From positions 1 through 41,254 of the IMG/VR virus record IMGVR_UViG_3300033402_000027: a stretch of DNA of 41,254 nucleotides. One strand, given 5' to 3'. This DNA is from a virus. Taxonomy: Duplodnaviria; Caudoviricetes. The translations under genes were made by a program, and so were the position numbers. The notes below the pieces were generated by a model. It was given only the letters and a program-made list of their open reading frames with translations. It had not been told where the DNA came from and made no database searches. Shown here one piece after another: positions 1 to 41,254 of the stretch; position 1 is the stretch's first letter, and each line of letters starts with the position of its first letter.

Positions 1-127
1 TATTTCCTATGAAGAGCTAGTATTTCCTATGAAGAGCTAGTATTTCCTATGAAGAGCTAGTATTTCCTATGAAGAGCTAGTATTTCCTATGAAGAGCTAG
101 TATTTCCTATGAAGAGCTAGTATTTCC
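1..127. repeat. Tandem array A, unit TATTTCCTATGAAGAGCTAG (20 bp), 6 full copies + 7 bp; continues from the window's right end
   Basis: Read directly. Perfect copies, with stop codons in all frames on both strands. Confidence 0.98.
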
Positions 128-219
128 CCAATCTCCGATACAATACCAAAGGTATGAAGAGCTAGTATTTCCCCAATCTCCGATACAAAGAGCTAGTATT
201 TCCCCAATCTCCGATACAA
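113..219. repeat. Repeat B, AGAGCTAGTATTTCCCCAATCTCCGATACAA (31 bp) x3 (113-143, 158-188, 189-219)
   Basis: Read directly. Shares AGAGCTAGTATTTCC with array A. Confidence 0.95.
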
Positions 220-326
220 AGAGATAATCCTCCCGGATCTTACGAGGCGGTTATACAAAGAGATAATCCTCCCGGATCTTACGAGGCGGTACAAAGAGAT
301 AATCCTCCCGGATCTTACGAGGCGGT
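215..326. repeat. Repeat C, TACAAAGAGATAATCCTCCCGGATCTTACGAGGCGGT (37 bp) x3 (215-251, 254-290, 290-326)
   Basis: Read directly. Exact copies. Confidence 0.95.
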
Positions 327-368
327 TCTCTTGTTACGAGCGTGTGTCAGCTTTCCAGTCCCAGTGCG

Positions 369-587
369 GGTCCGGAAAATGTCCCTCCCCTTTTCAAGGG
401 GACATTTTCCGGACCGTTTTATTTCGGGTCCCGGACCCGAACAATAACGTTCTTCACCGTTTCTCGTCGGGTCCGCGATATTCCGGACCCGGAACGGGTC
501 CCGGACCCGTGAAACGTTCTCTTAAAGCCGTGAAAAAAGATCGGGCGGGTCCGGGACCCGAAACGGGTCCGCGATGTTCCGGACCCG
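369..587. repeat. Cluster of six inverted repeats built on GG(G)TCC...GGACC(C)
   Basis: 369-415 (17-bp perfect stem), 423-441, 468-491, 494-510, 546-560, 564-587. Confidence 0.93.
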
Positions 588-617
588 CCATTTTGCCCCA
601 CCTCCGAATGTCCCCAA

Positions 618-668
618 CCAAAGAAATCGTAATGAACGCACATATGTAGATACTCAAAGTCTTCATAT
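618..668. repeat. 51-bp exact direct repeat of 40430-40480, flanked by a 9-bp inverted repeat (608-616 / 682-690)
   Basis: CCAAAGAAATCGTAATGAACGCACATATGTAGATACTCAAAGTCTTCATAT at both loci; ATGTCCCCA and TGGGGACAT flank the left copy only. Confidence 0.95.
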
Positions 669-756
669 CACCCAATATTCCTGGGGACATGTACTCTACG
701 ATGGGCTTTTTATACTCTTGGACACACTGAGAGTATTCGCCCGGTAGGGTATCGCG

Positions 757-1044
757 ATGACCAGTTCGAGAAACGCCAAATTCAAGCATCCCAAACCGAT
801 GCTCGGAACCTATCTTACCTCCCAACGTGAGATTGACATGTGGGACGAGCTCCGAGCCCGCCAACCACTAATTGGCGCCTCAGAACTCCTCCGGGTCCTC
901 ATCCGCCGTGGCGTTCCACAGCTACTCGCTCTCCCCCCAATGGAGCTCGAGAGAATCCTCCTAACGGAGGGCAAAGCCACATCCCCCACCTATCCGACAT
1001 TCGCCCCATCCAAGGTGGGCATGTCGAAGAAGAATATCCGCTAG
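757..1044 (+). CDS. Small DNA-binding protein, ribbon-helix-helix-like
   Basis: Basic N-terminus, short strand (MLGTYL) then two helices (SELLRVLIRRG); first gene after the repeat region. Confidence 0.55.
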   Translation: MTSSRNAKFKHPKPMLGTYLTSQREIDMWDELRARQPLIGASELLRVLIRRGVPQLLALPPMELERILLTEGKATSPTYPTFAPSKVGMSKKNIR

Positions 1045-1057
1045 ATATCCGAATAGC

Positions 1058-1096
1058 ACTAAGCCCGGACCCCCGTGGAAAAGGACCGGGCTTAGT
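1058..1096. promoter_or_regulatory. Stem-loop immediately before the helicase RBS
   Basis: ACTAAGCCCGG / CCGGGCTTAGT perfect 11-bp stem, followed by AGGAG and GTG at 1111. Confidence 0.6.
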
Positions 1097-1110
1097 AGGA
1101 GTGAGAAGAC

Positions 1111-2766
1111 GTGTCTCAAAATACTCTACAATCAAAGACCACTCCTCATATCGATGCTCGCGTCTTTCGCGGTCTCATCTCTGTCGGCGACTTTCCCGAT
1201 ATCGCTGACGCCCAAGATAATTGGGAGCGCTATCTCCAGAAAGACATCGAACTTTCCAACGAGGAAGACCTCAAGATTCACCGCTACTTGTCGGATTGGC
1301 ACTTCGGATGTCAAGGCAATCCTGACATCGCTCAGATCCGCCACTACTTCGAGAAAACCGACGAGGTTGAAGTTGTGGACTGGCTCAACGAAATTGCCAA
1401 GGCTCTCTGCTTTCGCCGAGAGATGTACAAAGGCATCCTTCTCGAGGTTTGCAAGCAGAACGAAGAACACCGCGAGCTTTTCCTTCTCGATTGTTGCCGC
1501 CTCATCACCACCATGGGCTGGGAACCACCTCGCCCTTTCAACGGCAAAAAAGTTCTGCGCGGTGTCGTCGATTCTCGCGAGTGGTACGAATCTAAAACTC
1601 GGGAATCCAAAATCTCCGATAATTTCGATTTCAAATTCATCACCGGCCCCGACATCGCAAAGTCCGCCGCACGTCCTCGCGTCCTTCTTCATCATTTCGG
1701 CATCCATTCCGGCCGTCCCACGGCCGTCATCGGATACGCCGGCATCTCCAAGACTTGGCTCGCGATCTTCCTCGCCCTCTCCACAGCAAGCGGCGCCGGA
1801 TCTTGCTGGGGCGGTCTCGAACTCGCTCGTAAAGGCGGCGTCGTCCATTTCGATTATGAAATGGGCAAGGATGGCATTTCCGAGCGTTATCGCCGCGCCG
1901 CTTTCGGTATGAACCTCGATCTTTCCAATTTGCTCGGCCGCAAGACTTCATCAAGCTTGGCCGGCACACTTCAACCTCGGGCATTCGCAGCCGCATCAGC
2001 CGCGCACCTTGACATTCCACTTCAACTTCTTCCACTCCCCAAGCAAGACCTCCACACTCGCGGCATGGAGCGCGCGTTGGTGAGAGCCTGTCGTGGTAAA
2101 ACCCTCTGCATTATCGACTCCTTTCGCGCAGCCACCGCCTCATCTCCCATTTCCGAGAACGATTCACAGATCCGTAAATATCTCGACATGCTCGCGCGCG
2201 TATCCGACGAAACTCAATGCGTTTTCCTCGTTCTGCATCACGCTCGTAAAGACGACCGAAATGCTGAGAAGAATGACTTCCTCAAAATTCAGGACGCGCG
2301 CGGTTCTTCCGGCATCGGCGACGCTTTCGGCGCCACCATTCACGTTGAAAATGCCGAAAACGGCTTTCGTCTGTTGCAAGGCAAGCGTTCTCGCGGCAAA
2401 CGCGGCGAAGACGTCTATCTTCGTCTCGAAGATGTAGGCAACATCCTCTATGAGCCCGACGATTTCGGACGCCAACATTCAGTCGGTTCCGAGGGCATTC
2501 AATTGTCTTCGTCTGCCGCCACACCGGGCGATCTTCAGCTCGAGAATGACATCGCCGAAATTACGCGCATCATTCGCGCATCAGGCGATCATATTGATTC
2601 AAAGGAGGACCTCGAGGCCGTTTGCAAAGGCATCGGTCACGATAGACGCGTTCTCGCCATTGGTCAAATGAAAATGCGCGGGATCTTGCGAAATACAAAG
2701 AAGGGTTATCACCTCGCCACCACTCTCGGCGTTGAAGACATGCTCCATGATGGAGATATCAAATGA
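1111..2766 (+). CDS. RecA-fold replicative helicase, RepA/AAA_25 type
   Basis: Walker A GYAGISKT, VVHFDYEM, Walker B LCIIDS, VLHHARK, ARGSSG motifs. Confidence 0.85.
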   Translation: MSQNTLQSKTTPHIDARVFRGLISVGDFPDIADAQDNWERYLQKDIELSNEEDLKIHRYLSDWHFGCQGNPDIAQIRHYFEKTDEVEVVDWLNEIAKALCFRREMYKGILLEVCKQNEEHRELFLLDCCRLITTMGWEPPRPFNGKKVLRGVVDSREWYESKTRESKISDNFDFKFITGPDIAKSAARPRVLLHHFGIHSGRPTAVIGYAGISKTWLAIFLALSTASGAGSCWGGLELARKGGVVHFDYEMGKDGISERYRRAAFGMNLDLSNLLGRKTSSSLAGTLQPRAFAAASAAHLDIPLQLLPLPKQDLHTRGMERALVRACRGKTLCIIDSFRAATASSPISENDSQIRKYLDMLARVSDETQCVFLVLHHARKDDRNAEKNDFLKIQDARGSSGIGDAFGATIHVENAENGFRLLQGKRSRGKRGEDVYLRLEDVGNILYEPDDFGRQHSVGSEGIQLSSSAATPGDLQLENDIAEITRIIRASGDHIDSKEDLEAVCKGIGHDRRVLAIGQMKMRGILRNTKKGYHLATTLGVEDMLHDGDIK

Positions 2767-2966
2767 AGTGCACAGTTCCGGGAACAAGAGATTGCCAAAA
2801 TCCAGTAGTCAAGTACTTCGTAGTGGACTTGAGTCTGGATTCTGATGAGAGTCTCACTTTCATCACGAGAAGCTGTGGTAAGCATTTGAATAATTTATTT
2901 CCTACTAATATTTACCAAGAAATCTCGTTCGAAGACTCAATCATTTGGGATATCATGGCATTATGA
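2763..2966 (+). CDS. Small putative Zn-binding protein (paralog 1 of 4)
   Basis: ATGA-coupled; C..C...CGKH; ends ISFEDSIIWDIMAL. Confidence 0.75.
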   Translation: MKCTVPGTRDCQNPVVKYFVVDLSLDSDESLTFITRSCGKHLNNLFPTNIYQEISFEDSIIWDIMAL

Positions 2967-3184
2967 ACGGCTCTCAGAATATCGCCGATCTGGAGGTTTA
3001 CATGCACGCTCTTAACGAATGTCGTCGTCTTTGGTTCCTCAAGCGCGGTTACAACCCTGACCTCATGAACACACCCGAGGTCATCGTCTACGGCAAATCC
3101 CATTTTCTTCAATGGCGCAATCAGCTCGGCAACGTCATCGCCAAATTTGAGGTCACTGGTCCAAAGGTCCGACTCGTCGCGTGA
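2963..3184 (+). CDS. Hypothetical protein (~73 aa)
   Basis: ATGA overlap at 2963-2966 and GTGA overlap at 3181-3184. Confidence 0.7.
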   Translation: MNGSQNIADLEVYMHALNECRRLWFLKRGYNPDLMNTPEVIVYGKSHFLQWRNQLGNVIAKFEVTGPKVRLVA

Positions 3185-3390
3185 GACGCTGTTCCGCTGC
3201 AGGAACCTCATGCGACGAAACCGCTGTGGCCGCGTTCGCTATTCCAGTCACATACGAGGACGGGGTTCCTTCACACTTCCGTTTCATCCTCGCATGCGCA
3301 TTCCATGCTTATCGCATTTCCCTCTATGAAATGGGCTATCAGCGTCTTTCGGACGAGGAAGCCATTTGTTGGGAGATCCTCAACTCATGA
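3181..3390 (+). CDS. Small putative Zn-binding protein (paralog 2)
   Basis: C..C...CAFH; ends LSDEEAICWEILNS. Confidence 0.75.
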   Translation: MRRCSAAGTSCDETAVAAFAIPVTYEDGVPSHFRFILACAFHAYRISLYEMGYQRLSDEEAICWEILNS

Positions 3391-3593
3391 GACAGACGAC
3401 GAAACCAAACATTCTCGAGTGCGCGTTCGTTTCGTGTGGAAATCTTGGAACTCGATTCTTTCAGTATCATATGCCAGGCGGATTGAAATTGGTGATCTCA
3501 TATTGCGGAAAATGTGATTTCTCCATTCCAGATGGATACTGGCTTGAAATCACTCGTGAAGAAGCTATCTGCTGGGAAGTGATGGACTCATGA
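3387..3593 (+). CDS. Small putative Zn-binding protein (paralog 3)
   Basis: ATGA overlap at 3387; C..C...CGKC; ends ITREEAICWEVMDS. Confidence 0.75.
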   Translation: MRQTTKPNILECAFVSCGNLGTRFFQYHMPGGLKLVISYCGKCDFSIPDGYWLEITREEAICWEVMDS

Positions 3594-3958
3594 TAGTCTT
3601 AGTGTTAAGCCTTTTATCTGTAGGGTTTGATATGGACTACATGGAGATGATGTTAGACGTACGCGAGATGGTCGCCACGGCTCTGTGTGAAGGCTATCTT
3701 GCAGACTCGCTCTCTGTATGCAACGGTCGTCCTATCATTATCGGCAGGGTCCCCTGGGACCGAGGAGATGCGGATGAGAAGCTCTGTACTGAAGATTATC
3801 GTCGTCTAGACGACTTCTTCATCCCTCGAGGCTATCTCAACAAAGGCCCTGTGAGCCGAATTAAATTTTTGCAATTGCTTGCTGAGCACTACGAACGCGA
3901 ACGGAGAGAGGTTCGCGAAATCATCCATGAGACGATGGCAGAATTGGAGAGCGCATGA
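3590..3958 (+). CDS. Hypothetical protein (start may be ATG 3632)
   Basis: ATGA overlaps at both ends; TAGGGT lies 5 nt before ATG 3632. Confidence 0.7.
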   Translation: MIVLVLSLLSVGFDMDYMEMMLDVREMVATALCEGYLADSLSVCNGRPIIIGRVPWDRGDADEKLCTEDYRRLDDFFIPRGYLNKGPVSRIKFLQLLAEHYERERREVREIIHETMAELESA

Positions 3959-4173
3959 AAACTCCCAATCGAGTCTACGAGCCAAAACTTCTCTGTCAGA
4001 AGTGTCTCGAAAGCCCCACGCAATGCTTCATTTTCACGCTTCGGGACCGTCATCATTTAGTGCGTCGTTGCGAGAAGCATCGCGTGGATGGAGATCTCCC
4101 TGAGTCTCTCCAAAGGAAAGACCTCTCCATGAATGAAATTTCCGAACTCACCCTGGAGCTTCTAGCCTCATAG
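3955..4173 (+). CDS. Small putative Zn-binding protein (paralog 4)
   Basis: CQKC...CEKH; ends LSMNEISELTLELLAS. Confidence 0.7.
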   Translation: MKTPNRVYEPKLLCQKCLESPTQCFIFTLRDRHHLVRRCEKHRVDGDLPESLQRKDLSMNEISELTLELLAS

Positions 4174-4196
4174 AATTTTAGGTTGTATGATCTGTA

Positions 4197-4760
4197 ATGG
4201 ATCTACTGATTCACGGAATACCCGATAAATTCGTCTTAAATTTGATGATTAAGGCTGAGGGCAAAGACCTCACCTGGCAATTCATTTTGGATGAGTGGAC
4301 CCGCTACACGCATCCTCATTTCTTCATTGACAAGCACAAGAAATCTCCTCGCACCGACGTGCCTGGTCAATGTCGTGTGTGTCAAAAGCCAACGCGTGTC
4401 TTCTGCGATCATCACCATGAGCTAGAACTGGAGAAAGCCAAAAGCACGCGCGCACGCAAAATGAGTCGTGAGGGATGCAAGCCTTGCGTAATCTGCGGCA
4501 GAAAATCGCGCGAGCCCATCGAATTTCCGCTTTGTGAAGAACATCGGAAACAAGCCGATGAGAATCTATTCGCTCGTGAAGAGGGTAGAAGAAATGGCAC
4601 GCGTGGCAGTAAACCCACCATCGAACAGATGGCAAAGAGAGCCACAGGCGGCATCCCGAAGGTTCTGAGCACCAAACCCACGGCCATTGCAGCTCGCAAC
4701 AAGTATCATGAGAAGAGAGCTCTCAGGAAACAAAAGCTCAGTCAGAAAGCCGAGCCGTGA
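4197..4760 (+). CDS. Basic protein with two CxxC...CxxH fingers
   Basis: CRVC...CDHH and CVIC...CEEH; Lys/Arg-rich tail. Confidence 0.7.
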   Translation: MDLLIHGIPDKFVLNLMIKAEGKDLTWQFILDEWTRYTHPHFFIDKHKKSPRTDVPGQCRVCQKPTRVFCDHHHELELEKAKSTRARKMSREGCKPCVICGRKSREPIEFPLCEEHRKQADENLFAREEGRRNGTRGSKPTIEQMAKRATGGIPKVLSTKPTAIAARNKYHEKRALRKQKLSQKAEP

Positions 4761-5299
4761 GCGGGAGCAAGAAGCTTCAGAATCTTCGTTGTCTAGTTTG
4801 CGGGAGCCCGCATCAGGCAACTTTCTACAAAATCTATTGTTCGGAAAAATGCCGCCAACTCGGCATGGTTCCGAAGGAGCCAATTTGGGGCACAGTCAAA
4901 ATCCCATGCCGTTTTTGCCAGGACATGTTCTTCCCGTTCTATGCCAATTACACAAAAGTTTGCAACAAGCGTGAATGCAAGCTCCAACTCAAACGAGAAT
5001 ATGACCGGGCTAATCAACTAGAAGTACCCCTCTGTGGCCATCCAGCCAGCGACACATATGTTAGCAATGATGGTCGGCGGAAATGTAGAACCTGCAATAA
5101 CGCGCGCAAATTGGCTCATCCAAAACCGCCGAAAGTTCCAACTCATTGTAGAAAAGGTCATCCTATCAGCGATAGTTACGTTAAACCAAATGGATATAGG
5201 ACATGTCGGACTTGCCTCAAATCGAAAAGGCGGAAACGCAGGCTTAGGCAGGCTGATTTGTCCTGCAGACCTCAATCTGGTATAATTACATATGAGTAA
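4757..5299 (+). CDS. Multi-Zn-finger protein with two HNH-associated-type (CxxGH...Y...G.R.CRTC) modules, no nuclease domain
   Basis: LCGHPASDTYVSNDGRRKCRTC and THCRKGHPISDSYVKPNGYRTCRTC, plus CxxC...YCSEKC. Confidence 0.7.
   Translation: MSGSKKLQNLRCLVCGSPHQATFYKIYCSEKCRQLGMVPKEPIWGTVKIPCRFCQDMFFPFYANYTKVCNKRECKLQLKREYDRANQLEVPLCGHPASDTYVSNDGRRKCRTCNNARKLAHPKPPKVPTHCRKGHPISDSYVKPNGYRTCRTCLKSKRRKRRLRQADLSCRPQSGIITYE
5258..5286 (+). promoter_or_regulatory. sigma70-type promoter, probably leaderless for 5292
   Basis: TTGTCC-17 bp-TATAAT with extended -10 TG; ATG 5 nt downstream. Confidence 0.65.
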
Positions 5300-5519
5300 T
5301 CACAAAAACAATGTGTTCATCACATTAAGTTTCACAGCCGACGAAATCGCCAACGTCAATGCATTGGTGAGTAATTATCCTAATGTATCCAGGCACGAGC
5401 TGCTCAAATTAGCTGCTCAATACGGGCTAACTACATTGAGTAAGAAAAATCTTTCTCAACTTTCAGTCGCTTTGCAAAAATTCAAGGATACCGCTCCACC
5501 CGATCGTTACAAGTTCTAA
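5292..5519 (+). CDS. Ribbon-helix-helix-like regulator
   Basis: VFITLSF strand, ADEIANVNALV helix, SRHELLKLAAQYGL helix. Confidence 0.6.
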   Translation: MSNHKNNVFITLSFTADEIANVNALVSNYPNVSRHELLKLAAQYGLTTLSKKNLSQLSVALQKFKDTAPPDRYKF

Positions 5520-5554
5520 TCGGAAATCCGTCGATCCCGGAAGTAACCGATCAC

Positions 5555-6046
5555 ATGAAACTCGCACTGTTGGGTAGTTCGGTTATTCTAATGCTGGTTG
5601 CCTGCGGCGGAACTCCTACTGTGGTGGAGATTATCGAACCATCTGGTTCATCTTCGAGTTCTAGCTCTAGTTCCTCTTCGAGTGGGACCGTGTGCCCCGC
5701 GGGCACGTATCTGGACAATGGGGGTCAGTGCGAGACTGACTCGACCAGTTCTTCTTCTAGCTCCGGCGATACTTCCGTGAGTTCTTCGAGTTCGTCAGGC
5801 GGCCAGGGTGGGTCGGAAGGTACCGGAGGCTCTGGAAGTACCTTCAGCTCTTCTTCTTCCAGTTCCAGCTCTTCTTCTAGTGGCTTGACCTGTTTGCCGA
5901 ACGGGGATTTTCTGCCTTTGGGGGATCCTGATTGGTTTTGTTGTTCAGGACGTGCGGTCAATTCCGTATGTATTGGCATCCCGCAGGACCCATGTGTGAG
6001 CGGGTGTGCAAACCTAAAAATCGTAGCGGAGATCATGGAATCATGA
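5555..6046 (+). CDS. Lipoprotein with Ser/Gly linkers and Cys-rich modules
   Basis: Signal MKLALLGSSVILM plus lipobox LVAC; poly-Ser tracts. Confidence 0.8.
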   Translation: MKLALLGSSVILMLVACGGTPTVVEIIEPSGSSSSSSSSSSSSGTVCPAGTYLDNGGQCETDSTSSSSSSGDTSVSSSSSSGGQGGSEGTGGSGSTFSSSSSSSSSSSSGLTCLPNGDFLPLGDPDWFCCSGRAVNSVCIGIPQDPCVSGCANLKIVAEIMES

Positions 6047-6285
6047 GCGGCTATCTAACTGTCACCAGCGTGATGAAGAAAGAAACTCGCGATTGGGGTT
6101 TCCGCCAGCACTCTGGTCAGAATCGATTTGTCAAACTCATGATCGAAGTTCTTGTTCCCGAAGAACAGGCGAACGCAGTCATCGACGCACTTCACCACGG
6201 AATCAATGGGCCGAATCTAAGAATCGATTGTTCTTGCCAAGAGTGCTTTAAGAATCGTGTAGTGTGCGAGGTGATGGAATCCTAA
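6043..6285 (+). CDS. Truncated PII (GlnB/GlnK)-like protein, 80 aa
   Basis: GYLTVTSV, GFRQHSG and KLMIEVLVPEEQANAVIDAL resemble PII GMTVTEV, GFGRQKG and KVKIEIVVPD..V..VI; ATGA overlap at 6043. Confidence 0.5.
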   Translation: MSGYLTVTSVMKKETRDWGFRQHSGQNRFVKLMIEVLVPEEQANAVIDALHHGINGPNLRIDCSCQECFKNRVVCEVMES

Positions 6286-6288
6286 CTT

Positions 6289-6528
6289 GTGAATAAACCT
6301 CATTCACTCTGTCGTCGATGCCATCAGCCTTTCCATCGCATGGCTGGACCTTATTTCTTATACTGCTGCTTCAAATGCTATCGACCTGAAGGCAATCATC
6401 GGAATTGCGCGTATGTGAATTGTGGGAAAGATTTCTTGATTGATAGTCGCAATCCCACGCAGAAATACTGCGACTTGAAATGCCACAATTTAGCGATGAA
6501 ACTGAAACGTCATCAGTTAGTGGGATAA
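6289..6528 (+). CDS. Small Zn-finger protein
   Basis: CRRC...YCCFKC and CAYVNC...KYCDLKC. Confidence 0.6.
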
Positions 6529-9500
6529 ACCGTCATGAACCCGCCATTCAACATGGCGCCGGTCTGTCCACCTACGTTCATTCCCATTACGACTTGTGCG
6601 GTTCCAGTCACACCAGGAACAGACACCACAGTGCCTTGCATAGCCACTGGACCTGTGGCTCCAACAGCAAAGAGTGTCGAATTCAAACCTGATTGATTTT
6701 GAGCACTCGCGATGCGAGGAGGTCCAGAGGCTCCCGATCCGACTCCCATGATTCCATAGTAGGCTTGTGCACCACTCGGCACGTTCAAGCCAAGTTTCAT
6801 GCCTCCAGCAGCACCATAGGCATTGAATCCAGCGTAAAAGGCCTGATTTTGTCCAATGACACTGAATGCTAGGTTGGAGGGACCAGTGGCACCAGTGACT
6901 GACGAGACGAAATCGGCAGGATTGCGCGAAGCTTGTGCAAATGGCCCGGTAGCGCCCGTGACGCCTGGAGTTCCTTGTGGACCTTGCGTTCCACCGACCG
7001 AAATGACCGAAAGCTGGCAGTTGGTGAAATAAACTGTGTTAGAATTCGATGGGTTAAGGACCCGTACGTCAACAGTTTCACCCGCGCTCAGAGTCTTTGT
7101 CCCTGAGATGGCGATAGTGATTTTCGTATTGTTTGAGAGTTGGTTCCGAAGGAATAGATCGGTAGCCTCTGCTCCATTCAAATAAATTGCAAAGTCTGTG
7201 AGACCGGCACCCCCAGCGTCAATAAATTCACTCGTGAACGAAATGAAATATGTGCCGGAGTTTGTGACCGTGATGTTCCACGGATTGCTAACATTCAGTG
7301 TCGTATTGAGAGAAGCACCAGCATTGGTGATAGGTACTTGATACCAAGTGACATTGCTGCTGATGCTGATTCCGGTAATATCGTCGCTATTGTAGATGTA
7401 TCCATAGGCGCCCGATACCGCACCCGGTCCTGTAGCACCCTGCGGTCCTGTAGGTCCAGTGGCACCAGTTACACCACGGGCTCCAGTGGGCCCAGTTACA
7501 CCAGTGATTCCGGTGACACCTTGAAGCCCTTGGATACCTTGCGGACCGGTTGCACCCTGAGGACCAGTGGGACCTGTCGCACCAGTAAGACCTGTGACTC
7601 CAGGAGACCCTTGAGTACCTTGTCCCTGGGGCCCCGTCTGTCCTTGAGGGCCCGTGGGACCGGTGGCTCCTGTGACGCCTTGAACACCCTGAATCCCTTG
7701 TGGCCCGGTTGCACCTTGAGGACCAGTGGGCCCGGTTGCACCCGTGAGACCAGTGACACCAGGAGACCCCTGCGTACCTTGGGTTCCCTGCGTCCCTTGA
7801 GGTCCGATTCCACCTTGAGGTCCGGTGGGTCCAGTGACACCAGTGACACCCTGAGTACCACCGAATGCAACGACATTGAACAATCCATACAGAGGATCGA
7901 GAGTTGGCGAACCACTAACACCGGAACCTTTAAGCTGGACTGTGATCGTATCGCCTGCATTCAGGACTTGAACCGTATCGATGATCGCCGTGTAAACATC
8001 AGTGGATCCGGTTCCTAGAGCGAAATAGATCTGACAAATTGCATCAGTAATTGCAATTCCATTCTTGAAAAACTGGAATTGCAAACTTGTGATGGTCGCA
8101 CTCACGCCGAATGGCATGTTGAAGGAGAGCTTGTAAGCGCCTCCATTCGCGACTTGGATTGAACCAGTGTTGTAATTCAGTGTGGTATTAAGCGAGGCGC
8201 CAGCAGCTTGCCATGCGAGAATAGCAAAGGAACTCGTGACTACAGGAGATTGTGCAAATTGCAGTTCTCCATAGGCACTTAGTACCGCACCAGGACCTGT
8301 TGGCCCTAGCGGACCTTGAATGCCCGTTGCACCCTGTAGCCCCGTTGCACCTTGTGGTCCTGTGGGTCCAGTCGCGCCGGTTACTCCTTGGATACCTTGC
8401 GGTCCCTGAACACCAGTCGCACCCTGAGGACCTGTGGCTCCAGTGATGCCTTGGATACCTTGCGGTCCCTGAACACCAGTCGCTCCTTGGATACCTTGCG
8501 GTCCCTGTGGTCCAGTTGCTCCAGTGATCCCGGTGATTCCAGGGGATCCTTGTGCTCCTGCTCCACCTTGCGTGCCGGTGGCACCTTGAGGACCAGTTGA
8601 CCCTTGGACACCTTGTGGCCCTTGAGGACCCGTGGCTCCAGTCAGACCAGTTGCACCTGCAAGACCAGTCTGACCTTGTGGACCCTGGGGTCCGATGGAG
8701 CCCGTAGGACCGGTTGCACCAGTGACGCCTTGGATACCTTGTGGACCCTGGGGGCCTGTTGCACCCGTGACACCTTGTGCACCCGTAGGTCCTGCAGGTC
8801 CATTGGCACCAGTGGCACCTTGCGGGCCAGTGGCACCTTGTGGTCCCTGAGGACCAGTCGCTCCTGTAGCGCCAGTGACACCTTGTGGTCCCTGAGGACC
8901 AATAGAACCGGTGGGTCCTGTGGCTCCGGTAACTCCCTGAACACCCTGTGGTCCTTGAAGACCCGTGGCACCTTGAGGACCAGTTGTACCCTGTGCGCCC
9001 TGTGCTCCAACAGGGCCCGTCGCACCGGTTACTCCTTGAACACCTTGTGGTCCTTGTGCGCCTGTTTGACCTTGAGGACCAGTGGGACCGGTGGCTCCAG
9101 TTACGCCCGTTAGACCAGGCGACCCTTGAACACCAATGCCTGTGGGACCAGTTGCTCCCTGAGGACCCGTTGGACCAGTTGCGCCTTGAGGACCCGTGGG
9201 ACCAGTTGCGCCTGCGACGCCCGGTGATCCTTGCGTACCTTGAGGACCCGTTGGACCAGTTGCACCTGTTGCACCTGCGACACCCGGTGATCCTTGAACA
9301 CCAACACCAGTGGCGCCTTGTGGACCTGTTGCACCTTGTAAACCTGTCGCTCCTTGCGGACCTGTACTGCCAGTGCCTCCACCGCCGGCACCACCAATTG
9401 TAGAGACATTGAAATTTCCACTAATCAGAATTAGTGTTCGGCCACCTTCACTGTGGGCAACCCGAACATCTACAACATCCCCAACTTGGAGAGAACGCAA

Positions 9501-24068: not shown

Positions 24069-25601
24069 TTACGTGCCGTTGCTCAGGTTGACGGTCTCAG
24101 AGATGTTGTTCGCGTAAGCCATCGGTTCGACCGTGATCGTGATGGGGATAATCCCAGTCGCGAGCACATTCTGCGTCGCACTAACAACGGCCGTCACAGA
24201 ACTCACAAGTGGCGTCTGAATCATTCCTTGATTCAGAGCGTTCTGGATAGTGCCCTGGAATTGATTGAGGGCAACCGGGTCGAGCGTCCCATTCGATTGC
24301 ACTTGGAGGTTATCAGAAACCTCTTCAACGCCAGCCGCATATCCAATATCGCAGGCGGCATCTAGAACGTTCCCGATGACGATCTCAGTGAACTGAGATC
24401 CGGGAGCACTCAAGAGAGGCTCCTGGCACTGGAAGAAACCCTGACCCTTCTTCGGCCACGTGAGGGCACTTCCGATGCGGGCAGCATTCAATCCGGGGTT
24501 AACCCGCTCATCATGATAGATGAACCCGTCCGTGGGGTCAGACGCGGGGTTGACGACGATTGTCGAGTAGGGCCCATCCTTGACGCGACCAGCACGGGTC
24601 TGGAGCCCCACCTGGGTGCGTCGTACCGCATGGCTCCAAGCGATGGGGCGGCGATACGAAGGGGTTCCACCTGCCGCATTCGCGAAAGGTGACGGGGTGT
24701 TGTAGTATCCTCCATCGGCGCAAACGCGAGGCTGGGCGACTTCTCCCGAAGAAATAGTCGCGAGAGCAGCCATCCAGGTGGCTTCAGTCTCACCAGATCC
24801 ACCCCACGCCACAGGCTGAAGTGCATCACGGAGTTCGACAATGGCGCGCGTGTAGACGTACCCATTGGTTCCAGTCTGGAGGGAGGTCTGGATGTCGTTG
24901 ATGTCGGTGCCGGCGCAAACTCCAACAACGTGGATGCTACCGACTCCTTCAACCGCGTACTGGGAAGCAAAGAAGGCCGCAAGAGCAGCCTCGACTCCCG
25001 CATCGTTCCAAGCCGGAGCTTGAGTTCCGAACTGCCAGTAATCGCCAGTCACCATAGTTCCAGCAGCGAAATTGAGCTGGATTCCGGTTCCACCAACGGT
25101 AGGCGTGTTGAGAACGCCCGAACCCAAGTAGTACGTAGTCGCCGATCCAAGCGTGACAGGAGCACCGTAATTACGGCCCGCATCAAGCGAGAATTGCACG
25201 ATGATTCCGGGCGTCCCGATAGTGCCGCCTTGGAGAACGCGCATACGGACGTAATATTGGTCCCAGCATCCGTACGTCGAATCCAACGTAACGGTGACTA
25301 CAGAAGTTGAACCCCCAGGAGTGATTGCTTGAACCGCATTTGCAGTTCCCTTGGTCACTACGGGGCAACTAATGCAAATTGGAATATTTCCAGCCTGAGC
25401 GACCAGACCTGCAGCTTCAACCAGCGGACCGCCGATGAACTGAGTCTGGATGCTCTGAGGATTGGAAGAGGCGTAGGGCTGATTTACAACACCCCCAACA
25501 GCCACCCCAATCTTGAGCTGAACATTTGCCTGAGGCACACTGAGAGCGGCACTTGCACCATTATCTACAACAGTGACCGTGACTGTCGGGATCGCAGGCA
25601 T
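24069..25601 (-). CDS. Contractile tail sheath protein (DUF2586-like)
   Basis: GGPLVEAA N-terminus, YHDERVNPGL, GSQFT, ITITVEPMAYANNI C-terminus. Confidence 0.82.
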   Translation of the reverse strand: MPAIPTVTVTVVDNGASAALSVPQANVQLKIGVAVGGVVNQPYASSNPQSIQTQFIGGPLVEAAGLVAQAGNIPICISCPVVTKGTANAVQAITPGGSTSVVTVTLDSTYGCWDQYYVRMRVLQGGTIGTPGIIVQFSLDAGRNYGAPVTLGSATTYYLGSGVLNTPTVGGTGIQLNFAAGTMVTGDYWQFGTQAPAWNDAGVEAALAAFFASQYAVEGVGSIHVVGVCAGTDINDIQTSLQTGTNGYVYTRAIVELRDALQPVAWGGSGETEATWMAALATISSGEVAQPRVCADGGYYNTPSPFANAAGGTPSYRRPIAWSHAVRRTQVGLQTRAGRVKDGPYSTIVVNPASDPTDGFIYHDERVNPGLNAARIGSALTWPKKGQGFFQCQEPLLSAPGSQFTEIVIGNVLDAACDIGYAAGVEEVSDNLQVQSNGTLDPVALNQFQGTIQNALNQGMIQTPLVSSVTAVVSATQNVLATGIIPITITVEPMAYANNISETVNLSNGT

Positions 25602-35805: not shown

Positions 35806-36480
35806 ATGGCCACCAGATTCACGGTACTCAGCACTGGATTCAAAGTCCCTGCAGACATTCGCAAGAAATGCTTGACGAGTGTGGCTCGTCAATTCAGACC
35901 GCCGTTAGGTCCGGAATTTGATCACATCTATATTGATGCAGCCGAACAAGCGACACCAAAAAGTCACTTCGAAAATTTGGTGGACGTCATCAACAAATTA
36001 CCTGATGATAGGATTGTAGCAAGTTTAGATGCAGATGATTGGCTAGGACCACCGAATGCTTTATGCACAGTAGCTCGTTATTTTGCAGCAGGCGCGCAGG
36101 TAACCTACGGGAGTTTCATGTTTGCAGATGGGCGTAAAGGTCAACCAAATGCACCTTATTATCCAGGTGAGAATATTCGTCAGGTCCCGTGGAAGGCCAC
36201 CCATATGAAATGTTTCCGTGCGGGACTCTTCAAGCGAATCTCACACGACCATTTGAAATTGCCTTCGGGAGAATGGATCCCACATGCGCGAGACCTTGCA
36301 CTGATGTTTCCTATGCTCGAAATGGCAGGTCCTGACCGAGTGGCACATGTGAATGAAGTTATTTATGTATATAATTTCGCCACGTCCACAGAATTCACGG
36401 GTGATGAAGAAATGCGAAAAGCTGAGAGAGAATGCGTGAAATATGTGAGATCTCTTCCGCCATATGAGAGGGTCCGATGA
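35806..36480 (+). CDS. GT2-like glycosyltransferase
   Basis: KCLTSVARQ, IYIDA, SLDADDWL, DLALMFPMLEMAG, IYVYN. Confidence 0.85.
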   Translation: MATRFTVLSTGFKVPADIRKKCLTSVARQFRPPLGPEFDHIYIDAAEQATPKSHFENLVDVINKLPDDRIVASLDADDWLGPPNALCTVARYFAAGAQVTYGSFMFADGRKGQPNAPYYPGENIRQVPWKATHMKCFRAGLFKRISHDHLKLPSGEWIPHARDLALMFPMLEMAGPDRVAHVNEVIYVYNFATSTEFTGDEEMRKAERECVKYVRSLPPYERVR

Positions 36481-37325
36481 AAATCGTTGTTGCGCACGCC
36501 TCGTGGATCCCCGAGAGGCGCGAGAGTCTGAAAAAACTGGTCGATCTTCTCAAAGAAGACGTGGTAGTGAGTGCATCAGAGGGACCCGAACATGCGAGCA
36601 TCTGGGCGCGTGGAGTGTGGGAATGGGCGGCCCGTCAGAACGAACACGTTTGCATTTTGAATGATGACGTGCTCGTGCACCCGGAATTTCGCAAGATTTG
36701 CGAAGCCATGATCGAGGCAATTCCTGACGAATGCTTGTCCCTGCACACAAATATCCTAGGTGCAGCAGCTGAAAGCATGCTCGGGCATCATTGGGTCAGA
36801 TGCTATTGGTACACAGGCCCGGCGGTGATTCTGCCCCCAGAGCGCGTGAAAAGTCTGCTTGAATGGGTATATCAAACCCCCTGGTATTTCCTCTCTCACA
36901 ACAATGAGGACAACGTAGCTATCCATTGGGCGTGGGCGGAACAAAGACCATTCTATTGCGCAATCCCTGCGCCAGTGGTGCACGACACGACGGTTAAATC
37001 CACGCTGGGATACGACGATCATCCCTTTAGAGTTCCGCTAGTCCCGTGGGGGGACCCGCAATGGGCGGGAGCTCCATTGACGGAGAAAAAATGGTGGGAA
37101 GTCGGAGGACCGCCGCCGTGCGTGCCGAACCCGTGGATGCCAGCTCAAAAACTCGAGTACATGCGACGAATTCTGACGGATCCTGACGCGCAGCTTTGCT
37201 CATTTTGCATGGAAAGACAGGGAATCGTAAGTTCGAGCACGAACCCGAAAGCACCGAGACTCTGCCATCTATGCATCGTGAAAATGTACTCGGCAGCCGT
37301 TACGCAAGGGCAGGTGAAGAAATGA
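36477..37325 (+). CDS. GT-A-like glycosyltransferase with C-terminal C4 Zn finger
   Basis: HVCILNDDVL, GPAVILP, ED, PAPVVH; CSFC...CHLC. Confidence 0.62.
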   Translation: MKIVVAHASWIPERRESLKKLVDLLKEDVVVSASEGPEHASIWARGVWEWAARQNEHVCILNDDVLVHPEFRKICEAMIEAIPDECLSLHTNILGAAAESMLGHHWVRCYWYTGPAVILPPERVKSLLEWVYQTPWYFLSHNNEDNVAIHWAWAEQRPFYCAIPAPVVHDTTVKSTLGYDDHPFRVPLVPWGDPQWAGAPLTEKKWWEVGGPPPCVPNPWMPAQKLEYMRRILTDPDAQLCSFCMERQGIVSSSTNPKAPRLCHLCIVKMYSAAVTQGQVKK

Positions 37326-37669
37326 AAATTCGACTGATGCGAGGCCAAGTGGTGGTGAGGGAAGTCACGAGGGCCCGAAGTTCACTACTTTGGACGCCAG
37401 ACCCCACCGCAAGACAACAGAAGACACATACGGGCGTCGTTCTGGGATTAGGACCACCTGCTAGGCTTACCGATCATCCGAATTCGCCGGAAGTATTTCA
37501 CGGCTTTCAGGTGGGGGATATTGTGCAATACCATTTCACATCCCATCAAGAAGCAGCTACGCGCGAATGGACAGATGGGAAACCGGCGACATGGATCCCG
37601 CAAATGAACGTGGATTGTGTGTGGGAAAGTGAACGGCATGAAGTGGAATATAGCTACAATGACACTTGA
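37322..37669 (+). CDS. groES: GroES/Cpn10-like co-chaperonin
   Basis: MKIRLMRGQVVV, LLWTPD loop, GVVLGLGP, FQVGDIVQY; ATGA overlap at 37322. Confidence 0.75.
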   Translation: MKIRLMRGQVVVREVTRARSSLLWTPDPTARQQKTHTGVVLGLGPPARLTDHPNSPEVFHGFQVGDIVQYHFTSHQEAATREWTDGKPATWIPQMNVDCVWESERHEVEYSYNDT

Positions 37670-37678
37670 GGAGACCCT

Positions 37679-38062
37679 ATGAAAGCAGGAATTTATTGCG
37701 CGCTAACAGCGCTTTTGGCGGAAACGGAGGAAGAGCTCTTCAACACGAGTGTGCCGAGCGGGTGTCGCGTGCAAGTGCGTGACGTGGCCGGCTTGCGAAA
37801 AGTTGTTGCGCACTGGGCGCCCGAGAGCCCGCAAATTTCGCCGGATTTTCCTTCGAGCGAGGCGATGGCGCTGAAGATTATGGAAGCGGCGGATAAACTA
37901 CCGGGTGAAATTGAGGCCTTCCAAATTGCGATGGCGGCGATTCGAGCGCGGGACCTGCAATGGGTAGAAGCGCTCAGGGCCGGAAATGAGAAAACTGCGG
38001 TTGCACAAACCGAATATTGGGTCCGATTCGGGAGAAACTGCATTGAAACGGGGCATCACTGA
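37679..38062 (+). CDS. Hypothetical protein
   Basis: GAGGAG RBS; lies in the operon. Confidence 0.7.
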   Translation: MKAGIYCALTALLAETEEELFNTSVPSGCRVQVRDVAGLRKVVAHWAPESPQISPDFPSSEAMALKIMEAADKLPGEIEAFQIAMAAIRARDLQWVEALRAGNEKTAVAQTEYWVRFGRNCIETGHH

Positions 38063-38070
38063 GGAAAGAA

Positions 38071-38784
38071 ATGGCGAAAATGAAATTGGTGATTGCGACG
38101 CCGGTTAGAGCGGCTGAAATGGGGGCGGCGTCAGTGAGTCTGGGCTATGCGGAGATGCTCAACAAGATCTTCCGCCTTTTGCCGACGAGCGAAACGCTGG
38201 CGGGATCCATTACGTTCTCGTGTGACATCGTGAGAGGAAGAAACCGGATTGCGGCCAAAATTTTACGCGAGATTCCGGAGGCCACACATGTGCTGTGGGT
38301 GGATGACGATCAATGGTGTGAAGACGTAAACATTATTACGGAAATGATGAATTTGGGAGTGGATGTGGTGGGTGCGCCATATACGAACAAAAGGCAACCG
38401 CTTCATTGGGTGCATCGGAATTTGACGCCGCAAGCGTGCATGGCGGGGGACCTGTTGGAAGTGGCGGGTGTGGGATTTGGTTTCACGTTGACGAGCGTGA
38501 GTTGCCTGAAGCGCATGAGTGAAGTTGAGAGAAAATATACTGATCATCCAAATCCACATAAGGTCGCAAACATCTTCGGACATTTATTCGATCATCCGCT
38601 GCTGGAAAAGGGTGTGGCGATTAAAGAGGAAGATCAAGCGCTTTTGAGTGAAGATTATTCATTTTGCGTGCGAGCGAGAAAGCTCGGAATTCCTATTCAT
38701 ATTTACGTGAAAGGCGGGATTGTTTATCATGCGGGATCCCACGCGTGGACGGCCCGTGAAATGCCGGGTGGGGTGATCGGGTGA
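38071..38784 (+). CDS. GT-A-fold glycosyltransferase-like protein
   Basis: VIATP, RGRNRI, THVLWVDDD, VVGAPY, GFGFTL, SEDYSFC. Confidence 0.82.
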   Translation: MAKMKLVIATPVRAAEMGAASVSLGYAEMLNKIFRLLPTSETLAGSITFSCDIVRGRNRIAAKILREIPEATHVLWVDDDQWCEDVNIITEMMNLGVDVVGAPYTNKRQPLHWVHRNLTPQACMAGDLLEVAGVGFGFTLTSVSCLKRMSEVERKYTDHPNPHKVANIFGHLFDHPLLEKGVAIKEEDQALLSEDYSFCVRARKLGIPIHIYVKGGIVYHAGSHAWTAREMPGGVIG

Positions 38785-38804
38785 TGGGGTGATAGGAATA
38801 TGAG

Positions 38805-39540
38805 ATGGTGAGGCAACAAATTCCGATTCAATCTATTTGGATAGGCGACAAACTGAGCCGAATGGAACGCCTAGTCATTAGGTCATATCTTAGGTTTGGT
38901 CATTCCTTCAGGCTCTATACGTATGGGAAAGTAGAGAATGTGCCGAGTGGGACAGAGGTGCTGGACGGCGCAGAAATTCTTCCACCCAGCAGGATCTTCC
39001 GAAGTTCAAATGGGGCGGTTGGAGATTTCGCAAACCTGTTCAAATATTATGTGCTTCGAGATTTTGGGGGCTGTTGGACGGAAATGGATGAGGTATGCCT
39101 GCGCCCGTGGGATCTTCGTTTTCTAGGGGGATTCATTAGCTCAGAGGCTACGGAAGATGGTGGCGCAATAATTGATCAGGCAGCTATATGTATTGAGCCC
39201 GGACATGCGCTAATGCGAGGATTAGTAGATCAGTGAGAAATTCCTGAGGGATAACAAAGACCAACCCTTCGAATGGGGAACGTTCGGAGTCCCACAATTT
39301 GCGAAAGCAGTCAAAGCAGCGAGATTGGAAGACCGCGTACTTCCTCCAAATATCTTCTGCCCACTCCCGTGGTGGGAAGCGGAGAAACTATTAGGCCCAG
39401 GAGAAATCTCCAAGAACGCATTTGGAATACAATTATGGAATGAAGCGTGGCGTCGGAACGGATGGGATAAAGACAAAGCCCCACCGGGAAGCATGTACGC
39501 GAAATTGCTATGGGAAATTTGCATGCGGAGCGAACCCTGA
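38805..39540 (+). pseudogene. GT32-like (DxD sugar-binding + alpha-1,4-GT C-terminal domain) glycosyltransferase split by a frameshift at ~39234
   Basis: QSIWIG..LSRMERL.IRSY, GGCWTEMD; the next frame continues EKFL...WGTFG...FCPLPWW...QLWNEAWRR. Confidence 0.78.
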
Positions 39541-40131: not shown

Positions 40132-40207
40132 CGGGAATAGGATACTACACATATTAAAACCCGAGCGGGAATAGGATACTACACATATTAAAACCCGAGC
40201 GGGAATA
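40132..40207. repeat. 34-bp tandem duplication CGGGAATAGGATACTACACATATTAAAACCCGAG x2 + 8 bp
   Basis: Read directly. Confidence 0.95.
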
Positions 40208-40320
40208 TCCAGTACAGTGCCAGTTTTCGTTTCGATGATCTTGATGCCGGATTAGTATTGCGGCGCATTATAGCCCATCATTTTCAAGGGCATGGTTGCC
40301 TGTAGGCTCTGTAAATTTTG

Positions 40321-41073
40321 TTATGACGCGGTTTCTGGGATATCCCCTAATACCTTGTTGAGGGCATCCCTGAGGGCGATCATTTCTTCGCGCGAGTATA
40401 GCGCCAGCCCCAGCGTTCGCCATCTCTGGCCAAAGAAATCGTAATGAACGCACATATGTAGATACTCAAAGTCTTCATATTTCTTGAGCGATATCACCAG
40501 CTCCGAACCATTATCCTTGAGCTTCCTTGATGGTGCGTCGTGTCTCACGCGGGCCACCTCGATGCTGGTAGCTTGAGTGACATTGAGGCCCGCCTCGCGC
40601 TTACGACGGGGCTCTCCTGGGGCCTGTACTGCCTCGAGCCTTGGCTCAATAATCTCCCCATCCTGAGAAATCCATTGAGCGGGGTCCCATTCAAAAATGA
40701 TGTCGAACCAGGATGCCGTTCGATGCCTCTTGTCTTCAGGAGGGGCTGGTACGCAGGCGTAAATCTGCTCATATCGCCACGTAATTGGGCTGTCAGGGCT
40801 GTCATCCATCCCGAGCCATTTAGCCACCACATCACGCGGGCACTTGAACGCGCCCTGCAGATTGTCGAGGTCCATCGCCTCCGTCCCATGACGCCTAAAA
40901 ATCACCTGCACTGCAATTTGAGGAGGTTGTTCAAGAGCCCGTAATGCCTCTCGAACCGCTGCTTGCTCCCTCTTGATACGTCCAATTCGACCCCCTCTGG
41001 TCTGGAGGTACTGCTTATTGGTAGATATAACCCTGCAATGAACTGCAACCTCTACTCTTGAGGGGTATTCCAT
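40321..41073 (-). CDS. RusA-like resolvase domain fused to a PC4-like C-terminal domain
   Basis: MDLDNLQGAFKCPRD...LGMDDS (RusA-type acidic and Lys residues); ELVISLKKYEDFEYLHM...GLAL..EEMIALRDAL (PC4-like). Confidence 0.65.
   Translation of the reverse strand: MEYPSRVEVAVHCRVISTNKQYLQTRGGRIGRIKREQAAVREALRALEQPPQIAVQVIFRRHGTEAMDLDNLQGAFKCPRDVVAKWLGMDDSPDSPITWRYEQIYACVPAPPEDKRHRTASWFDIIFEWDPAQWISQDGEIIEPRLEAVQAPGEPRRKREAGLNVTQATSIEVARVRHDAPSRKLKDNGSELVISLKKYEDFEYLHMCVHYDFFGQRWRTLGLALYSREEMIALRDALNKVLGDIPETAS
40430..40480. repeat. Coding-region copy of the 51-bp direct repeat
   Basis: Identical to 618-668; encodes YEDFEYLHMCVHYDFFG on the minus strand. Confidence 0.95.
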
Positions 41074-41127
41074 ATGTTTCTTGGAGCCCGTAGAAAAGGC
41101 TCAAAAGTCAGCGATGCATACCAAAGG

Positions 41128-41254
41128 TATGAAGAGCTAGTATTTCCTATGAAGAGCTAGTATTTCCTATGAAGAGCTAGTATTTCCTATGAAGAGCTAG
41201 TATTTCCTATGAAGAGCTAGTATTTCCTATGAAGAGCTAGTATTTCCTATGAAG
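41128..41254. repeat. Tandem array A at the right end (127 bp)
   Basis: Same 20-bp unit as 1-127; 41118-41147 is also identical to 143-172. Confidence 0.98.

What the first reader, a model, noticed from the sequence alone, without database searches (positions are those of the whole stretch)
608..690. 51-nt exact copy of the phage's own coding sequence displayed in a hairpin loop: candidate antisense/guide cassette
Seen: 618-668 equals 40430-40480, inside the PC4-like half of the minus-strand gene 40321-41073. Only the non-coding copy is clamped by a 9-bp inverted repeat (ATGTCCCCA / TGGGGACAT), and the same ATGTCCC/GGGACAT arms occur in the 369-415 hairpin. A plus-strand transcript would be perfectly antisense to that mRNA. 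In a circle, the two copies bracket at least 1.4 kb containing all the origin-like repeats, so recombination could excise or amplify that segment. Excision would not rebuild an ORF, because an in-frame TGA precedes the left copy. Inference: a captured self-targeting sRNA, a recombination switch, or a recent templated insertion.
Basis: partly seen in the sequence, partly recalled or inferred. Interest (0 to 1): 0.8.

Follow-up and report, generated by a model that had tools for sequence, protein, structure and literature searches.

The report
Self-copied patch in phage origin hairpin
An uncultured peat phage carries an exact 51-base copy of one of its own genes inside a non-coding hairpin; it is most likely a DNA-repair or copying scar, like two similar patches in a close relative, though it would make a perfect antisense RNA if that strand is transcribed.

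Summary
In detail: 618-668 equals 40430-40480, 9-bp inverted arms flank only the left copy, and both junctions appear in contigs of 3 of 5 runs laid. The donor gene is a predicted RusA-like resolvase fused to a PC4-like domain.

The cassette and switch readings are not supported. The insert is bounded by a 5-nt direct repeat (CCCAA); without it a 9-bp, 7-nt-loop hairpin remains, so the arms likely predate it. A close complete relative (G001) has two more self-copied patches (68 and 49 nt) without arms; a syntenic relative has none. No reverse transcriptase, Cas or recombinase was found. Depth does not fit excision or amplification between the copies; instead about 40178-41147, holding the donor gene, is at about twice the depth, likely a terminal repeat.

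Best reading: a recent templated insertion into an existing hairpin loop (0.62). An antisense role stays open (0.2), because the adjoining + strand hairpin folds like RNA and the insert is its gene's most AT-rich stretch. No RNA data or empty-site relative was available.

The parts
618..668 (+). 51-nt exact copy of the donor gene segment; a + strand transcript would be antisense to the donor mRNA
   Evidence: junction contigs
608..616 (+). 5' arm of a 9-bp perfect inverted repeat, likely the stem of a hairpin older than the insert
682..690 (+). 3' arm of the 9-bp inverted repeat
613..617 (+). CCCAA, left member of a 5-nt direct repeat bounding the insert (target-duplication-like)
   Evidence: sequence; chance 0.5%
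669..675 (+). two bases not matching the donor, then CCCAA (671-675), right member of the 5-nt direct repeat
   Evidence: sequence
691..752 (+). long hairpin abutting the 3' arm, five G-U pairs on the + strand, covering the likely ribosome-binding region of ORF 757; predicted RNA leader
   Evidence: z -4.93 on +, -2.71 on -; G-U pairs counted by hand from that structure
367..589 (.). cluster of GGGTCC/GGACCC palindromes, including the 17-bp hairpin 369-415; origin-like by position (inferred)
   Evidence: a repeat cluster sits at the same place in G002
40430..40480 (-). donor segment, codons 198-215, beta-strands of the PC4-like domain; GC minimum of its gene (33% vs 53%)
40321..41073 (-). donor gene: predicted RusA-like resolvase fused to a PC4-like domain; full-length homologues exist, including in syntenic G002/G003
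40178..41147 (.). segment at 1.9-2.6 times the depth of the rest, likely a terminal repeat; right limit lies somewhere in the tandem repeats
1..327 (.). 20-, 31- and 36/39-nt tandem duplications (continuing 41118-41254; the 20-nt array is unresolved at both contig ends)
40132..40207 (.). 34-nt tandem duplication at the left edge of the doubled-depth segment
757..1044 (+). small ORF ahead of the AAA_25 helicase gene 1111-2766; ribbon-helix-helix lead only
   Evidence: (rank 28, score 0.91)

Best explanation
The 51 bases at 618-668 are an exact copy of part of the phage's own RusA/PC4-like gene, most likely pasted recently into the loop of an already existing 9-bp hairpin by an error-prone repair or template-switch event, and likely without a dedicated function. 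Shown: the copy, its arms, a 5-nt direct repeat around a 53-nt insert, and similar arm-less patches in a relative. Inferred: a break or stalled fork at the hairpin in the palindrome- and tandem-repeat-rich origin region; synthesis switched to the donor about 1.4 kb away in the likely terminal repeat, copied 51 nt and returned, duplicating 4-5 nt. The arms then clamp the insert only because it landed in their loop. Speculative: the phage's own RusA-like or endonuclease VII-like nucleases made the break.
For: Removing the 53 nt and one CCCAA leaves a perfect 9-bp stem with a 7-nt loop; a 5-mer repeat placed like this occurs in 0.5% of 20,000 random positions. The arm motif is reused at 369-415 and the region holds 14 perfect hairpins of 6 bp or more in about 390 nt. 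Perfect or near-perfect tandem duplications lie within 300-600 nt. G001 (terminase 70%, capsid 75%) has a 68-nt exact reverse copy of a tail gene replacing a similar-length stretch of a conserved ORF in frame and a 49-nt sense, in-frame copy of baseplate J sequence forming the tail of its RecT gene; best arms around those are 4-6 bp. Orientation differs case to case. Syntenic G002/G003 keeps the helicase, small ORF, repeat region and RusA-PC4 fusion but no 14-mer of its intergenic region recurs elsewhere in its 37-kb record. No RT, Cas or recombinase among 52 ORFs scanned. The target is deep in the coding sequence, and the relaxed promoter scan found only three 8-of-12 matches on +.
Against: No empty-site allele or close relative was seen, so the ancestral hairpin is a reconstruction. 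Loops of perfect hairpins of 9 bp or more cover only 0.6% of the genome, and 9-bp arms surround 11 of 705 other 51-nt windows in 340-1059 and 1 of 600 sampled genome-wide, so the landing site is non-random. The insert is the GC minimum of its gene and in the lowest 0.7% of windows, while the G001 patches are not AT-rich. The 604-752 region folds well on + (z -3.74) and not on - (z -1.12). The insert's right junction is kept in strain X5, which differs at dozens of sites elsewhere. G000 has no detectable RecT. Only 2 of 26 records show coding-derived patches, most records being partial.
Confidence: 0.62

Rival explanations
1. The same insertion was kept because a + strand transcript through 608-752 displays it as a paired-termini antisense RNA that would damp the RusA/PC4-like gene, which is likely present twice per virion and enters first.
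For: Arms pair with probability 0.86-1.0 in the folded + strand RNA and a perfect 51-bp duplex is predicted at -84 kcal/mol. The abutting hairpin 691-752 has five G-U pairs and folds much better on +, which suggests transcription starting at or before 691. The donor lies in the doubled-depth segment. Engineered paired-termini antisense RNAs silence genes in E. coli (PMC1635301, passages).
Against: No convincing promoter upstream. The target is codons 198-215, whereas PMC1635301 says most natural antisense RNAs target the initiation region and that silencing needs a large excess. The cassette alone folds only modestly (z -1.93) and about 44% of the insert is predicted paired. The syntenic relative lacks it. 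No Rfam family reaches its threshold (0 of 14 matches).
Confidence: 0.2
2. The AT-rich insert was retained at DNA level, as an easily melted element or promoter beside the origin-like repeats.
For: 33% GC, lowest 0.7% of windows; lies between the palindrome cluster and the helicase operon.
Against: The AT-richness partly follows from the aromatic residues of the PC4 strands; AT-rich tandem repeats already flank the region; no good promoter match inside it.
Confidence: 0.08
3. A dedicated capture cassette: the arms are a loading site that takes up different guides or templates.
For: Perfect arms only at the non-coding copy, a target-duplication-like junction, and three patches of similar size (49-68 nt) in two close phages.
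Against: Single unit, no array; the G001 patches have no arms; no RT, Cas or integrase; the 7 arm-pattern hits share nothing else with the window.
Confidence: 0.05
4. A recombination switch that excises or amplifies the origin segment between the two copies.
For: Direct repeats of 51 nt bracket the repeats in a circular map.
Against: 298-647, inside the bracket, is at 0.85-0.93 of genome depth while 40178-40459, outside it, is doubled; no recombinase found; excision would remove the likely origin.
Confidence: 0.03
5. Assembly artefact.
For: The contig ends in an unresolved tandem array, and no laid contig spans the whole insert with both flanks.
Against: Both junctions at genome depth in 3 of 5 runs; the 51-mer contig's depth is close to the sum of gene-side and cassette-side depth (264 vs 177+81 in X1).
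Confidence: 0.02

Closest known systems
Templated insertions at repair junctions (SD-MMEJ, PMC2943611, abstract and outline seen; template switching, recalled)
   Same: Exact short copy of nearby sequence, short repeat at the junction, a few non-matching bases, hairpin-rich site
   Different: That work is on Drosophila and Pol theta; here a phage, a 51-nt patch from about 1.4 kb away, enzyme unknown
Minihomology recombination repair in phage T4 (PMC8262927, passages seen)
   Same: Phage break repair through few-base homologies
   Different: The passages read report deletions and 1-5-nt insertions, not ectopic patches of about 50 nt
Paired-termini antisense RNA (PMC1635301, passages seen)
   Same: Antisense stretch closed by inverted repeats
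   Different: Engineered, strongly expressed, needs large excess; here a 9-bp stem, mid-gene target, transcription unknown
Phage cis- and trans-encoded sRNAs such as P1 c4 (review PMC12197685, passages seen)
   Same: Phage RNA that could pair with a phage mRNA
   Different: Trans-encoded ones are described as short and imperfect in pairing; a perfect 51-nt trans copy is what a fresh duplication gives
DGR template/variable repeats, retron msr-msd, CRISPR mini-arrays (defining features recalled)
   Same: A non-coding copy of, or match to, coding DNA in a structured setting
   Different: No adenine-specific differences, no RT or Cas found, no direct-repeat array
Direct terminal repeats (PhageTerm, PMC5557969, passages seen)
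   Same: Twice the average coverage over about 1 kb, starting sharply
   Different: Read-start peaks could not be tested with contigs; a one-round headful series would look similar

Membership tests
Templated insertion / template-switch scar | Insert is an exact copy of sequence elsewhere in the same genome, native at the donor site | tested here: met
   donor residues align with homologues
Templated insertion / template-switch scar | Short repeat or microhomology at the junctions | tested here: met
   CCCAA at 613-617 and 671-675; chance 0.5%
Templated insertion / template-switch scar | Empty-site allele in sister strains or relatives | tested here: inconclusive
   no joint in 4 runs; no relative aligns at DNA level
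Trans-encoded / paired-termini antisense RNA | Transcribed on the strand complementary to the target | not testable with these tools
   no RNA holder listed
Trans-encoded / paired-termini antisense RNA | Complementary stretch held between pairing termini | tested here: met
   predicted only: arm pairing 0.86-1.0
Trans-encoded / paired-termini antisense RNA | Target at the translation initiation region (usual, not obligatory) | tested here: not met
   codons 198-215 of 250
Trans-encoded / paired-termini antisense RNA | Conservation or covariation in relatives | tested here: inconclusive
   absent in G002/G003; no closer relative held
Diversity-generating retroelement | TR and VR differ at adenines | tested here: not met
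   0 differences in 51 nt
Diversity-generating retroelement | Cognate reverse transcriptase | tested here: not met
   none in 52 ORFs; six-frame motif scan gave one hit in a 16-residue open stretch; a host-supplied RT is not excluded
Retron | RT gene next to an ncRNA closed by inverted repeats | tested here: not met
   arms present, no RT, no Rfam match at threshold
CRISPR mini-array | Spacer between direct repeats of about 25-40 nt | tested here: not met
   only a 5-nt direct repeat; arms are inverted
Recombination switch | Recombinase and detectable alternative arrangements | tested here: inconclusive
   no recombinase found; depth does not fit; 31-letter contigs cannot show rare recombinants across a 51-nt repeat
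Direct terminal repeat (40178-about 41150) | Twice the average coverage with no alternative junction | tested here: met
   1.9-2.6x in X1, X2, X3; bin depth reproduced from known contigs alone in X1 and X2
Direct terminal repeat (40178-about 41150) | Read-start peaks at both ends | not testable with these tools
   runs are held as contigs
RusA-like + PC4-like fusion (donor gene) | RusA fold N-terminally, PC4 fold C-terminally, invariant acidic residues | tested here: met
   predicted model only: Z 8.4 and 7.5; D68, D70, N71, K77, D91 invariant in 15 of 15 rows; the domain folded alone (pLDDT 59) did not rank PC4 high

The most novel reading that the evidence does not exclude
A regulatory RNA caught at birth: phages of this clade paste 50-70-nt pieces of their own genes into new places, and here one landed in a hairpin loop at the head of a structured + strand leader, giving a natural paired-termini antisense RNA that turns down the phage's own terminal-repeat resolvase/ssDNA-binding gene as replication genes switch on.
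Probability: 0.18. Interest if true: 0.7.

Novelty: new member of a known kind. Interest (0 to 1): 0.28.

Why it matters
As a scar it is ordinary, but it documents self-templated patches of 49-68 nt in two related phages, a route by which phages gain new protein tails or new antisense sequence. If the + strand is transcribed and acts, it would be a concrete case of a trans-antisense RNA arising by capture of a target fragment, a route that PMC4350180 (passages seen) describes as poorly understood in bacteria. The likely 1-kb terminal repeat also fixes the physical ends of an uncultured phage group.

Tried and rejected
No RNA holder listed for 300-9000; not used as evidence. Single-protein scans of viral contigs for the helicase and donor gene found no relative; the donor alignment found 1 RusA-only locus; terminase in genome contigs found none. 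Arm pattern (7 loci, three of them one sequence) and 17-nt hairpin pattern (2 loci) shared nothing else with the window. Rfam: 14 matches in 1-1200, none near threshold. The 5% 'origin-region' arm rate was mostly the real arms themselves; it was redone exhaustively (11 of 705). Recurrent loose ends at 25404 and 37181 were not explained: one matched position 6007 only with mismatches, the other nothing. Locus L027 is the window's own record and was left out. In the 26-record tally G002 was dropped as the same phage as G003, G027 and G028 were not fetched, G004 is not shown to be in the clade, and pairs joining the two record ends were dropped; other pairs found were a contig-end match (G020) and two in G025 (one with neither copy in an ORF; one from a multi-copy motif). 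Paper searches found no description of such patches in phage genomes among the listings seen (with 0 papers, 67, 88, 103), nor of a RusA-PC4 fusion; subscription papers and supplements were not seen. The C-terminal domain folded alone was too poor to use.

Full report
Setting. The window is a whole 41,254-nt phage record with Mu-like head genes, contractile-tail genes, an AAA_25 helicase and several HNH or endonuclease VII-like genes; no reverse transcriptase, Cas protein, integrase or recombinase was found among 52 ORFs scanned. Six peat metagenome runs hold it, none on record as RNA. Both ends are exactly 127 nt of a 20-nt tandem repeat, which I read as an unresolved array joining the ends. 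The host is unknown; a distant relative (capsid 33%) lies in a Polyangiaceae bin, a weak hint.

Observation. 618-668 equals 40430-40480 exactly, and the next-best match of 300-760 elsewhere is 13 nt. The 9-bp arms at 608-616 and 682-690, their reuse in the 369-415 hairpin and the in-frame TGA are as described. In X1 the 51-mer is its own contig at depth 264, close to gene side (174-177) plus cassette side (71-81). One run may be the source sample.

Donor. Gene 40321-41073 has no Pfam or PHROG hit, but 727 relatives at E up to 0.001, mostly over its N-terminal half and about a dozen of the best 150 over most of its length. Its model (pLDDT 83.5, 15 sequences) matches RusA over residues 4-131 (Z 8.4) and PC4 homologues over 169-243 (Z 7.5 and 6.3). 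The copied codons 198-215 align with the homologues, so the gene is the donor and the non-coding copy is derived. The segment is the gene's GC minimum (33% vs 53%), in the lowest 0.7% of windows; aromatic residues explain part of this, and the rest is unexplained.

An unexpected result on depth. From about 40178 to 41147 depth is 1.9-2.6 times that of the rest in X1, X2 and X3 and about double in X5, while 298-647 is at 0.85-0.93. The mean depth of the boundary bin is reproduced from the known contigs alone (173.6 vs 173.5 in X1; 47.5 vs 47.5 in X2), so no second junction enters there. The simplest reading is a physical end: a terminal repeat of about 1 kb holding the donor gene (twice-average coverage is the PhageTerm criterion, PMC5557969). 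The tool warns that contig depth is no copy number, so this is an inference.

Anatomy of the left copy. CCCAA stands at 613-617 and again at 671-675, around the 51 nt plus two non-donor bases; such a repeat occurs in 0.5% of 20,000 random placements. With the 53 nt and one repeat removed in silico, the arms close a 7-nt loop, an ordinary hairpin like the others in this region (14 perfect hairpins of 6 bp or more in about 390 nt). So the arms most likely predate the insert. The site is still non-random: 9-bp arms surround 11 of 705 other windows in 340-1059 and 1 of 600 genome-wide. That fits either breakage at hairpins or selection. Perfect or near-perfect tandem duplications of 20-39 nt lie a few hundred bases away, marking an error-prone zone.

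Relatives. Terminase and capsid alignments gave 13, 40 and 32 loci, and 26 records (G001-G026) were fetched whole. G002/G003 (one phage, terminase 64%) keeps the order helicase, small ORF, repeat-rich intergenic region, RusA-PC4 fusion, yet no 14-mer of that intergenic region recurs elsewhere in the G002 record. G001 (terminase 70%, capsid 75%) has two dispersed self-copies. One is a 68-nt exact reverse copy of a tail gene that replaces about 18 codons of a conserved ORF in frame, the homology to a Pseudomonas phage protein resuming right after it. The other is a 49-nt copy of baseplate J sequence, sense and in frame with one synonymous change, forming the tail of its RecT gene. Neither has arms above 6 bp or low GC. 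Of 26 records compared (G000 included, G002 dropped), 4 have dispersed near-exact pairs of 40 nt or more, and only G000 and G001 have coding-derived ones; most records are partial. G000 has no RecT match.

Could it still be an RNA? Directly after the 3' arm, 691-752 forms a long hairpin with five G-U pairs that folds better on + (z -4.93) than on - (z -2.71); for 604-752 the values are -3.74 and -1.12. It covers the likely ribosome-binding site of ORF 757, so + strand transcription probably starts at or before 691, possibly upstream of the insert. In such an RNA the arms would pair and the insert could form a perfect duplex with the donor mRNA, resembling engineered paired-termini antisense RNAs (PMC1635301). 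Against: no convincing promoter (0 strict, three 8-of-12 relaxed matches on +), a mid-gene target, that paper's need for a large excess, absence in the syntenic relative, and no Rfam match at threshold.

Comparison with known systems. DGR, retron and CRISPR mini-array each fail a defining feature (no adenine differences, no RT, no direct-repeat array; features recalled). It fits templated insertion at a repair junction (PMC2943611, abstract); T4 minihomology repair (PMC8262927, passages) shows phages use few-base homologies, though those passages report deletions and tiny insertions. Earlier AI notes of this scan read similar patches in other phages the same way; they are unchecked and are not counted as evidence.

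Verdict. Real, recent, most likely a scar (0.62); antisense co-option 0.2; DNA-level co-option 0.08; cassette 0.05; switch 0.03; artefact 0.02. New member of a known kind; interest 0.28.

Noticed in passing
window 40178-41147: About twice the depth of the rest of the genome in four runs, bounded by tandem repeats and with no alternative junction on the left: likely a 1-kb terminal repeat carrying the RusA/PC4-like gene.
   Followed up: yes
G001:3251-3318 and 41094-41142: Two further self-copied patches (68 and 49 nt) from tail and baseplate genes, one replacing part of a truncated conserved ORF, one forming the tail of RecT.
   Followed up: yes
window 35806-39236: This block of glycosyltransferase-like genes lies opposite to the terminase, whereas its homologues in L013, L014, L012 and others lie on the terminase strand: an inversion specific to this phage.
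   Followed up: partly
G016:1-260 and 59690-59962: A distant relative carries a CRISPR-like array (36-nt repeat, 35-39-nt spacers) across its record ends; no spacer matched the other records beyond 19 nt.
   Followed up: partly
window 40321-41073; L014:2567-3676: RusA-like + PC4-like fusion family with no Pfam/PHROG hit; the nine other homologues looked up sit on contigs under 5 kb.
   Followed up: partly
window 691-752: Strand-asymmetric G-U-rich hairpin over the likely ribosome-binding site of the small ORF ahead of the helicase; candidate copy-control leader.
   Followed up: partly
window 454-606, minus strand: A strong Shine-Dalgarno-like GGAGG near 601-606 precedes a short Gly-Pro-rich frame read through the palindrome cluster; probably a by-product of the repeats.
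   Followed up: no
window 25404 and 37181: The same loose ends recur in all four runs laid; unexplained.
   Followed up: partly
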